In this document: positions 32,201 through 33,301 of the stretch, piece after piece
Layout: each line of letters opens with the position of its first letter
Position numbering within the stretch: the first letter of the stretch is position 1
Source: Escherichia coli
GTDB lineage: Bacteria > Pseudomonadota > Gammaproteobacteria > Enterobacterales > Enterobacteriaceae
Strand: one strand, 5' to 3'
Length of the DNA stretch: 33,301 nucleotides
Assembly (NCBI RefSeq): GCF_002854065.1
Contig: NZ_CP024149.1
Made by a program: the position numbers

Positions 32201-33301
32201 GAAAAATCATTTCGAGTCTGAAAAGCTCCAGCCAGGAACGCTTATCAAAGTAAAAAAACTGGCTCCTACGCTTGTACGTAGTCCAATGTTTAATGATGAT
32301 GGAACTGTTGCAGGCTACAGGGAAACGCATCGCAATAACTGGCAGATTGAAAATATTGCCCTTGAGCGGAACAGAGAACGTCAGGTTCATGAGCGTGAAA
32401 CCAGGCAGCCGGAAGAGAGCGACGTTAAAAAGCAGCTATCCAGAAAACATGAGCAAGGTCACAATATCGGGTTTGCTCTTGAACACGGGTTTACAAAGGA
32501 TTCAGAAGAACATAAAAAACTAAGAATACAGCAAGAGAGGAACTGGAAAGGCCTGGGATTTTAATTTGATTTTGGCGCAGGTGAACAAAGCGGCTACTTT
32601 GCTCACCTGCTGATCACAACAACCTACGAGGGAGGTTATCATGACTGAGCATGATGCTATCTGCATTTCTGGACTTCATCAAATTTTTAGTGATGAAGAA
32701 CATTTGAGTGAGCAACAAAAAGACATTATTCTGATGTACGCTTATGGCTATACCCTGAATGAAATTGCTGATTTCAAAGGACTAAAGCCTTCAACTGTCA
32801 GAAAATATCTCGATTCTGTAAGAGCTGAACTGGGAGGTGTCTCGTTGGCAGGGATCAGAACACTGGTACTCATTCGGACTAATGCCCTTCTCGTGTCAAG
32901 TCTTTCCAGGATCAGTGAGAGGGGGAATTTATGAAAAAATATCTGCTTTTTGCTTTGCCGTTCTTCGTTGTTGGTTGTAGTGAAGAAGTAAAAAGTGTGG
33001 ATTGGTGGGGGCAGCATCTTACGGAAGCTAAACAAAAGCAGGCAGAGTGTGAGAAGTCTGGCTCTGATTCTCAGAACTGTAAGAATGTTAAACAAGCATT
33101 GTTTATTCAGTCTCAGAAGGATGCTCCAGTCCCTACATTCGATTAACTAATGTTTCAATCATACTAGAGCGCCCATATGGGCGCTTTTTTTTGCATGATC
33201 ACACGAATCATAATATGACCATTTTGTCAATGTTATTTGATCGTATTGTTGAGCATTGTTATTTTGCGAATCATGTTCGCATCTAAAACAAATCCAAAAC
33301 A

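What the first reader, a model, noticed from the sequence alone, without database searches (positions are those of the whole stretch)
33193..33301. Window ends appear to join: probable circular plasmid with the T4SS operon control region spanning the junction
Inference from content: the window holds a full plasmid complement (replication, partition, transfer, relaxosome) and both ends fall in non-coding DNA. The last 110 bp contain a palindrome GCGAATCATGTTCGC and repeated ATTGTT motifs, and the first 200 bp carry a small RHH-like ORF ahead of pilX1, consistent with a promoter/operator region that reads across the artificial ends.
Basis: inference. Interest (0 to 1): 0.3.

Follow-up and report, generated by a model that had tools for sequence, protein, structure and literature searches.

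The report
Known pilX promoter across plasmid ends
The window is a complete, circular 33.3-kb IncX4 colistin-resistance (mcr-1) plasmid cut open in the middle of the 42-nt leader of its conjugation (pilX/T4SS) operon, so the already published PixR-activated promoter PpilX straddles the two ends; this is correct but ordinary.

The parts
32641..32934 (+). pixR: 97-aa LuxR/sigma-70-region-4-type HTH activator of PpilX
   Evidence: Pfam Sigma70_r4_2 at 31.2 bits (cut-off 25.7); GerE at E 1.7e-4, below its cut-off. The published BAD-pixR primers map to 32641..32666 and 32911..32934. Function from PMC8725589.
32931..33146 (+). eex: EexN-family entry-exclusion lipoprotein, the last gene before the spacer
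   Evidence: NCBIfam NF033894 Eex_IncN, E 7e-19; RefSeq annotation of identical records.
33166..33192 (+). Intrinsic-terminator-like hairpin (9 pairs, 6 of them G-C) plus a run of 8 T, closing the taxA-taxC-pixR-eex unit
   Evidence: Terminator scan on L001 2965..2986, which is window 33166..33187; sequence read. Termination itself was not tested.
33203..33301 (+). PpilX, first 99 bp of the published 120-bp fragment (-78..+21): promoter plus the first half of the leader
   Evidence: pilXpromoter-R primer maps to 33203..33222. EMSA and 130-fold lacZ activation by PixR are reported in PMC8725589.
1..21 (+). PpilX, last 21 bp (+22..+42): second half of the 42-nt leader, up to the cds9 ATG
   Evidence: The 3' part of pilXpromoter-F is the reverse complement of window 33300..33301 plus 1..21 and crosses the window ends.
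33281..33281 (+). Transcription start site of the pilX operon (A, +1)
   Evidence: The Cappable-seq peak lies 'exactly 42 bp upstream of cds9' in pHNSHP23. Transferred to the window via the cds9 ATG at 22. Not measured on this molecule.
33269..33274 (+). Inferred -10 hexamer AATCAT (-12..-7; 4 of 6 matches to TATAAT)
   Evidence: My assignment from the TSS position. It reads AATCCT in sister lineages and AATCAT or AATCAC in IncX7. Below the consensus-scan threshold.
33246..33251 (+). Inferred weak -35 hexamer TTGTTG (-35..-30; 3 of 6; 17-bp spacer), overlapping the first ATTGTT
   Evidence: My assignment. No + strand sigma-70 consensus site was found in the spacer, which fits an activator-dependent promoter.
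33245..33260 (+). Two ATTGTT copies, 10 bp apart (-36..-31 and -26..-21); candidate part of the PixR site, unproven
   Evidence: Not beyond chance. The first copy and most of the second lie upstream of the ~33259 homology boundary, in the half of the promoter that changes with the PixR allele.
33265..33281 (.). Palindrome TGCGAA-tcatg-TTCGCA (-16..+1), bracketing the -10 hexamer and ending on the TSS
   Evidence: The left arm is GATAA in pSH696_34, pEC3-5 and pCRTS. A different palindrome sits at the equivalent place in L007 (CGAATC-N7-GATTCG) and in pJARS35 (GATTATT-t-AATAATC).
22..198 (+). cds9: 58-aa first gene of the pilX operon, predicted ribbon-helix-helix protein
201..821 (+). pilX1: VirB1-like lytic transglycosylase, second gene of the operon; its GGAG Shine-Dalgarno (187..190) lies inside cds9
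   Evidence: Pfam SLT, E 1e-10; annotation; sequence context.

Best explanation
The window is one whole circular IncX4 mcr-1 plasmid written out linearly. The arbitrary cut falls between +21 and +22 of the 42-nt 5' leader of the pilX (type IV secretion/conjugation) operon. The upstream unit taxA-taxC-pixR-eex ends at an intrinsic terminator (33166..33192). The next ~90 bp hold a weak, activator-dependent sigma-70 promoter with an inferred -35 TTGTTG, an inferred -10 AATCAT and the TSS at A33281. PixR, a 97-aa LuxR-type HTH protein encoded 350 bp upstream, binds this 120-bp region and switches on one long transcript that crosses the window ends. That transcript covers cds9, pilX1-11, taxB and trbM. 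Shown elsewhere by experiment on the near-identical plasmid pHNSHP23: the TSS, PixR binding (EMSA), 130-fold activation, and the single-operon structure. Shown here: the circular permutation, the junction contiguity, the exact placement of the published fragment and primers, and the RHH fold prediction for cds9. Inferred: the -35/-10 assignments; that the PixR operator lies upstream of about -22 (because that half of the promoter is exchanged together with the pixR allele); and that Cds9 binds DNA.
For: Circular permutation of NZ_CP037906.1, same length, 3 mismatches. The record is typed IncX4, MOBP, MPF_T, circular. The junction matches 1200/1200 at 100% inside closed plasmids, with 362 records covering at least 80%. 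237 of 238 E. coli places are on plasmids. Published primers map exactly, and pilXpromoter-F crosses the ends at 33300..21; PpilX is 33203..21. TSS, EMSA, lacZ and operon RT-PCR data come from PMC8725589. A terminator was found and no consensus + strand promoter, as expected for an activator-dependent promoter. Sister lineages with a PixR only 47-48% identical keep about 95% identity from ~33259 onward but diverge upstream. The synteny pixR-eex-spacer-cds9-pilX1 is kept in IncX7.
Against: Nothing was measured on this particular molecule. The TSS and PixR data are transferred from pHNSHP23 (MF774184.1), which is not in the held collections, so it could not be aligned directly. Identity rests on exact matches to 9 published primer sequences. 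The -35/-10 hexamers are weak (3/6 and 4/6) and are my own assignment; the paper's Softberry boxes are in a figure I could not read. The module boundary at ~33259 could be a neutral recombination breakpoint rather than a functional operator/core-promoter boundary.
Confidence: 0.95

Rival explanations
1. The window is not a free circle. It would instead be a plasmid-length piece of a larger replicon (a cointegrate or a chromosomally integrated copy), or a mis-closed assembly, so the ends do not join in this sample.
For: Larger derivatives carrying the same junction exist (46-63 kb records), and 1 of 238 places in complete E. coli genomes is chromosomal. No reads are available here.
Against: The window has exactly the length and full gene content of closed circular records, differs from one by 3 SNPs, and has no missing or duplicated sequence at the ends. 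An integrated or cointegrated copy would be broken elsewhere, and there is no reason for it to begin and end at abutting bases.
Confidence: 0.03
2. The palindrome TGCGAA-N5-TTCGCA over the -10 hexamer and TSS is an operator for the operon's own first product, the RHH protein Cds9. Cds9 would feed back negatively on PpilX, giving a burst-then-shut-off circuit.
Against: A palindrome of this size is expected by chance in 72% of shuffles. Its left arm is not conserved (GATAA) in lineages whose Cds9 is 98% identical. Published data show only that a cds9 deletion abolishes transfer and is not complemented in trans, which the authors attribute to polarity. DNA binding has not been tested.
Confidence: 0.2
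3. The ATTGTT direct repeats (-36..-31 and -26..-21), with the TGTTATTT copies, are the PixR binding site. PixR would then act as a class II-type activator that overlaps a weak -35 and recruits RNA polymerase.
For: PixR binds within -78..+42 and activates 130-fold without other plasmid factors. The -35 is weak. The first repeat and most of the second lie upstream of the ~33259 boundary, in the half that is replaced when the PixR allele, including its recognition helix, differs.
Against: The repeats are no more than chance gives (39% of shuffles). LuxR/GerE-type HTH dimers usually bind inverted repeats, and none of at least 7/8 exists here. The second repeat lies in the spacer between -35 and -10, an unusual place for an activator. 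The site could equally lie at -78..-40, for example AATCATAATAT at -75..-65, which is shared with IncX7.
Confidence: 0.3
4. PixR works mainly as a counter-silencer. The AT-rich PpilX would be silenced by H-NS/Hha (plasmid-encoded and chromosomal), and PixR would displace them, as VirBR does at PactX of IncX1-3 plasmids.
For: The promoter segment is the most AT-rich stretch locally, with GC 0.31 over 33201..33300. The plasmid encodes H-NS and Hha. VirBR/HppX3 counter-silencing has been shown for IncX3, X1 and X2 (PMC11915502). PixR deletion has little effect under non-mating conditions.
Against: No H-NS data exist for IncX4 in the papers read. PixR is unrelated to ActX/PrfaH, and the authors state that its mechanism is direct promoter activation. 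The weak -35/-10 are sufficient to explain the activator dependence.
Confidence: 0.2

Closest known systems
PpilX / PixR of IncX4 plasmid pHNSHP23 (Yi et al. 2022, mBio 13:e03209-21, PMC8725589)
   Same: It is the same element. pixR, eex, the 120-bp PpilX, cds9 and pilX1 are in the same order. All published primer sequences match the window exactly, and the TSS falls on A33281.
   Different: There is no functional difference. The window merely breaks the element between +21 and +22. Added here: the RHH fold prediction for cds9, and the observation that pixR, eex and the upstream promoter half are exchanged as one module between IncX4 lineages.
F-plasmid TraJ -> PY -> traY arrangement (own knowledge of the F tra operon; the TraY structure is in the, 76 hits)
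   Different: TraY is a natural tandem RHH in one chain and a relaxosome component at oriT. Cds9 is a 58-aa single RHH unit with no sequence-profile match to TraY above threshold (E 0.039 for one family member). PixR is unrelated to TraJ. The IncX4 relaxosome accessory TaxA already has its own NikA-like RHH.
PactX control in IncX1/X2/X3 plasmids: ActX/PrfaH anti-termination, VirBR/HppX3 counter-silencing (PMC11880322, PMC11915502)
   Same: A single regulated promoter upstream of virB1/pilX1 drives the whole T4SS operon. A small regulatory gene is the first cistron. Plasmid H-NS is present.
   Different: IncX4/X7 lack actX/prfaH and have pixR instead. No ops-like element is present beyond chance. 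eex sits upstream of pilX1 rather than between pilX5 and pilX6.
[not shown]
   Same: A small RHH dimer encoded by a conjugative plasmid, and a predicted DNA-binding ribbon.

Membership tests
IncX4 conjugative plasmid (closed circle) | Whole-length collinearity with closed circular IncX4 records | tested here: met
   Same-length rotation of NZ_CP037906.1 with 3 mismatches. That record is typed IncX4 / MOBP / MPF_T / circular. Window 1-25000 matches many 33.3-kb IncX4 mcr-1 plasmids at 100%.
IncX4 conjugative plasmid (closed circle) | Ends physically joined in this molecule | not testable with these tools
   No reads are available. The junction is contiguous in 362 or more independent closed records, and a published PCR primer spans it.
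PixR-PpilX control system (Yi et al. 2022) | pixR gene (97 aa, HTH) between taxC and eex | tested here: met
   ORF 32641..32934. The published pixR primers match exactly. Pfam Sigma70_r4_2 scores above its cut-off.
PixR-PpilX control system (Yi et al. 2022) | The 120-bp PpilX sequence immediately upstream of cds9 | tested here: met
   Both pilXpromoter primers map exactly and delimit 33203..33301 plus 1..21, which is 120 bp.
PixR-PpilX control system (Yi et al. 2022) | PixR-dependent TSS 42 nt upstream of cds9; PixR binding and activation | not testable with these tools
   Experimental results are transferred from pHNSHP23. Computationally there is only a weak -10/-35 at the right distance.
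Ribbon-helix-helix (RHH / MetJ-Arc) superfamily, for Cds9 | Strand-helix-helix unit whose strand pairs with that of a second subunit | tested here: met
   [not shown]
Ribbon-helix-helix (RHH / MetJ-Arc) superfamily, for Cds9 | Significant match to an RHH sequence family profile | tested here: not met
   No Pfam or NCBIfam hit for Cds9 itself. Only sub-threshold TraY (E 0.039) and HicB (E 0.12) hits for single family members. The PDB profile search found nothing significant.
Ribbon-helix-helix (RHH / MetJ-Arc) superfamily, for Cds9 | Sequence-specific DNA binding through the ribbon | not testable with these tools
   No binding data exist. The candidate palindrome is not conserved.
LuxR/GerE-type HTH activators, for PixR | C-terminal four-helix HTH domain | tested here: inconclusive
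   GerE scores 21.6 bits, below its 23.5 cut-off, while Sigma70_r4_2 scores 31.2, above its 25.7 cut-off. The paper reports a LuxR-like Phyre2 model.
LuxR/GerE-type HTH activators, for PixR | Dyad-symmetric (lux-box-like) operator near -40 | tested here: not met
   No element with at least 7 of 8 symmetric positions exists in the 135 bp upstream of cds9.

The most novel reading that the evidence does not exclude
Cds9, the unannotated 58-aa first cistron of the IncX4/IncX7 T4SS operon, is a ribbon-helix-helix DNA-binding protein. It would autoregulate PpilX at the -10/TSS palindrome, or alternatively assist at oriT. On this reading the published non-complementable cds9 deletion, which removed exactly the predicted DNA-reading ribbon (codons 14-21, window 62..84), reflects more than simple polarity. 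PixR plus Cds9 would then form an activator/feedback pair that governs the spread of mcr-1 plasmids.
Probability: 0.25. Interest if true: 0.35.

Novelty: already known. Interest (0 to 1): 0.1.

Why it matters
The practical lesson is about annotation. When a circular plasmid is written linearly, the element cut by the arbitrary origin is invisible to linear scans. Here that element is the single promoter controlling conjugation of the globally spread mcr-1 IncX4 plasmids. Biologically, the promoter, its activator PixR and its start site are already published, so confirming them adds no new knowledge. There are two small additions. First, the operon's first gene, cds9, is missing from most RefSeq annotations and is predicted to be an RHH DNA-binding protein. 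Second, pixR, eex and the upstream half of the promoter are swapped as one cassette between IncX4 lineages, which narrows where the unmapped PixR operator should be sought.

Tried and rejected
1. RNA structure in the 42-nt leader across the junction, including the AATCCA..TGGATT inverted repeat at 33291..16. The fold is -4.2 kcal/mol with z = 0.23, no better than shuffles. Rejected.

2. A dyad-symmetric lux-box-like PixR operator. None with at least 7 of 8 matching positions was found in the window type, and there is no common position across lineages. The large IncX7 and L007 palindromes at about -70/-75 from the ATG look like the upstream terminators. No conclusion.

3. An ops-like RfaH/PrfaH recruitment site in or near the leader. 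Only 2 one-mismatch matches were found, both elsewhere in the plasmid, against 0.84 expected. Rejected.

4. Sequence-profile proof that Cds9 is RHH, using Pfam, NCBIfam, a PDB profile search and HMMER against 1.84 billion representatives. Nothing was significant, and the 968-aa hit P0020 is an artefact of repeats.

5. The AF2 monomer model of Cds9 gave a single long helix with no PDB match. It was superseded by the tandem-dimer model.

6. Direct retrieval of pHNSHP23 (MF774184.1) to map coordinate 26,338. The record is not in the held collections, so the paper's primer sequences were used instead.

7. The experimental-evolution paper PMC10470590 concerns an IncFII plasmid and is irrelevant.

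8. Rfam found no RNA family at the junction.

9. The - strand promoter-like site at window 33236..33207 is within chance expectation (2 found against 2.8 expected).

Full report
**What the window is.** The ORF map shows a pilX/virB-type T4SS operon, a 541-aa ORF and a plasmid backbone of about 33.3 kb. Searching the first 25 kb against PLSDB returned full-length 100% matches to many IncX4 mcr-1 plasmids of 33,298-33,310 bp. One of them, NZ_CP037906.1 (pLHM10-1-MCR-1), is closed, circular, typed IncX4 / MOBP / MPF_T and exactly 33,301 bp. It was fetched whole. The window is a rotation of its reverse complement, with only 3 mismatches at 4226, 16309 and 20578.

**Do the ends join?** I joined the last 600 and first 600 bases (no terminal overlap of 8 bases or more) and searched for this artificial junction. 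It is present as one uninterrupted 1200/1200 alignment at 100% identity, at internal coordinates of closed plasmid records. In all, 444 records match, 362 cover at least 80% of it, and 442 of the 444 are typed conjugative. Among complete E. coli genomes, 237 of 238 places that hold the junction are on plasmids and 1 is on a chromosome. The window is therefore a complete circle opened at an arbitrary base. The only thing not testable here is read-level proof for this particular sample.

**What lies across the ends.** Reading 5' to 3' across the junction:
- taxC at 31335..32564
- a 97-aa HTH gene at 32641..32934
- the EexN-family entry-exclusion gene at 32931..33146
- a terminator-like hairpin at 33166..33187, with a run of 8 T ending at 33192
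- a 176-bp AT-rich spacer from the eex stop to the next start codon (GC 0.31 over 33201..33300)
- a 58-aa ORF at 22..198
- pilX1 (SLT lytic transglycosylase) at 201..821

The consensus scan finds no + strand sigma-70 promoter in the spacer.

**This is a published element.** Yi et al. 2022 (mBio, PMC8725589) worked on the prototype IncX4 mcr-1 plasmid pHNSHP23. They named the 97-aa gene pixR and showed the following:
- Its deletion lowers transfer by 2 to 5 logs.
- Cappable-seq gives a single PixR-dependent TSS 'exactly 42 bp upstream of cds9'.
- cds9, pilX1-6, cds8, pilX7-11, taxB and trbM form one operon.
- The 120 bp upstream of the cds9 ATG (PpilX) is bound by purified PixR in EMSA and is activated 130-fold in a lacZ fusion without other plasmid genes.

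pHNSHP23 (MF774184.1) is not in the held collections, so I used the paper's primer table and mapped the plasmid-specific primer parts on the circularised window. All match exactly:
- BAD-pixR maps to 32641..32666 and 32911..32934.
- BAD-cds9 maps to 22..47 and 175..198.
- pilXpromoter-R maps to 33203..33222.
- pilXpromoter-F is the reverse complement of 33300..33301 plus 1..21, so this published PCR primer anneals across the window's two ends.

PpilX is thus window 33203..33301 plus 1..21 (120 bp, -78..+42). The TSS is A33281, and the window break lies between +21 and +22, in the middle of the 42-nt leader.

The palindrome extends to TGCGAA-tcatg-TTCGCA at 33265..33281, that is -16..+1. It brackets the best -10 candidate, AATCAT (33269..33274, -12..-7, 4 of 6). 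The first ATTGTT (-36..-31) overlaps the only plausible -35, TTGTTG (33246..33251, 3 of 6, 17-bp spacer). The second ATTGTT lies at -26..-21. These hexamer assignments are mine, made from the TSS position.

Statistically the motifs carry no weight. 72% of shuffles of the spacer contain a palindrome with 5-bp arms, 39% contain a hexamer repeated within 15 bp, and ATTGTT/AACAAT occurs 41 times in the plasmid. No longer dyad exists: none with at least 7 of 8 matching positions, against about 1.0 expected. The paper does not map the PixR operator; the phrase 'binding site' does not occur in it.

**Comparative evidence.**
- A sensitive DNA search showed that a subset of IncX4 plasmids match only from query base 159 onward, about window 33259.
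- In pSH696_34, pEC3-5 and pCRTS the pixR slot holds an 88-aa protein only 47-48% identical to PixR, with a different recognition-helix region. eex also differs.
- The spacer alignment shows about 95% identity from TTTTG (about -22) through the -10, the TSS, the leader and cds9, but roughly half that upstream.
- pixR, eex, the terminator and the upstream half of the promoter therefore travel as one cassette, and the core promoter and operon as another. The simplest reading (an inference) is that the allele-specific PixR operator lies upstream of about -22.
- In those lineages the palindrome's left arm reads GATAA, so the palindrome is not conserved even though Cds9 is 98% identical.
- IncX7 plasmids keep the synteny pixR-eex-spacer-cds9-pilX1.
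- IncX7 and a very divergent T4SS locus (L007) each carry a different palindrome over the presumed -10. This is suggestive at most.

**The small ORF.** cds9 has no Pfam or NCBIfam match. HMMER against 1.84 billion representatives finds only IncX4/X7-type relatives plus one repeat artefact. tblastn shows that homologues at 33-56% identity always lie immediately upstream of a virB1-like gene and are mostly unannotated.

An AlphaFold model of the monomer gave one long helix and no PDB match. RHH folds are obligate dimers, so I also modelled each of 8 family members as a tandem joined by a GGS linker. That model has strand 13-19, helix 21-34 and helix 38-53 in both copies, with pLDDT about 90 in those parts and pTM 0.66.

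TaxA, next to the relaxase, already has a NikA-like RHH domain. That tilts Cds9 towards a regulatory rather than a relaxosome role, by inference only.

The published cds9 deletion arms (22..61 and 85..124) show that only 62..84 was replaced. That stretch encodes exactly the predicted ribbon. The mutant lost transfer and was not complemented in trans, which the authors attribute to polarity. The pilX1 Shine-Dalgarno (GGAG, 187..190) lies inside cds9, which is consistent with translational linkage. No paper in the searchable library links cds9 or IncX4 T4SS control to an RHH protein.

**Mechanism and rivals.** The best-supported account is the published one. A terminator insulates PpilX from upstream transcription. 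The promoter is intrinsically weak. PixR binds within -78..+42 and turns on a transcript of about 12.5 kb that crosses the window ends.

Open sub-questions, ranked by my estimate:
- The ATTGTT/TGTTATTT repeats are part of the PixR site (0.3).
- PixR acts partly by displacing H-NS/Hha from this AT-rich DNA, as VirBR does at PactX in IncX1-3 (0.2).
- The -10/TSS palindrome is an operator for Cds9 autoregulation (0.2).

The rival that the ends do not join in this sample is very unlikely (0.03).

**Verdict.** The feature is an already characterised promoter of a very well known plasmid family, split by the linear representation. Novelty: already known. Interest: low. The only modest additions are the RHH fold call for cds9 and the cassette boundary inside the promoter.

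Noticed in passing
window 22..198 (and L003 1565..1741, L009 1501..1662, L007 2483..2668): cds9 is left unannotated in most RefSeq/PLSDB IncX4 records ('none' under the tblastn match). Yet a homologous small ORF is conserved immediately upstream of the virB1-like gene in IncX4, in IncX7 and in a divergent T4SS locus typed IncX4.
   Followed up: yes
window ~33259 (boundary); L003, L004, L005: There is a sharp change in divergence inside the promoter. pixR, eex, the terminator and the upstream promoter half are replaced as one cassette in some IncX4 lineages (PixR-like protein 47-48% identical), while the -10, TSS, leader and cds9 stay about 95% identical.
   Followed up: partly
L005 (pCRTS, Citrobacter rodentium) 1425..1510: The pilX leader of pCRTS carries an insertion of about 70 bp flanked by a 12-bp direct repeat, CCATAGTGGATT. 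The insertion contains a CAATGG-N9-CCATTG hairpin. The first copy of the leader end is degenerate and the second precedes the cds9 ATG.
   Followed up: no
window 17477..17565 (-): Rfam AgrB antisense RNA (58.7 bits, E 1.5e-7), the only Rfam hit in the plasmid. In the near-identical record NZ_CP037906.1 a DinQ-like type I toxin gene, dqlB, is annotated; by my conversion from the rotation found (not computed by a tool) it maps to about window 17876..17971 (+). The two would form a type I toxin-antitoxin-like pair.
   Followed up: no
window 4226, 16309, 20578: These are the only three differences from pLHM10-1-MCR-1. Base 20578 lies 12 bp upstream of the mcr-1 start codon (20590), in its ribosome-binding region.
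   Followed up: no
window 30828..31331: TaxA, the relaxosome accessory protein, contains a NikA-like RHH domain at residues 54-81 (PF21983, 29.3 bits against a cut-off of 27). The plasmid is therefore predicted to encode two RHH proteins in its transfer region.
   Followed up: partly
window 33206..33216; L009 about -84..-74 from the cds9 ATG: The 11-mer AATCATAATAT at -75..-65 of PpilX also occurs in IncX7 pJARS35. There it forms the left arm and loop of the large eex-terminator palindrome (AACGGCAATCATAATATTTATGATTGCCGTT). It could be residual homology or a shared protein site.
   Followed up: no
L007 / L008 (NZ_CP140518.1, NZ_CP128936.1): These plasmids are typed IncX4 by MOB-suite but carry a differently arranged T4SS locus. 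T4SS genes and eex are transcribed divergently from the cds9-like/virB1 unit, and a PixR-like HTH gene lies beyond eex. The shared motif TTTTGCGAATC sits upstream of the cds9-like ORF.
   Followed up: partly
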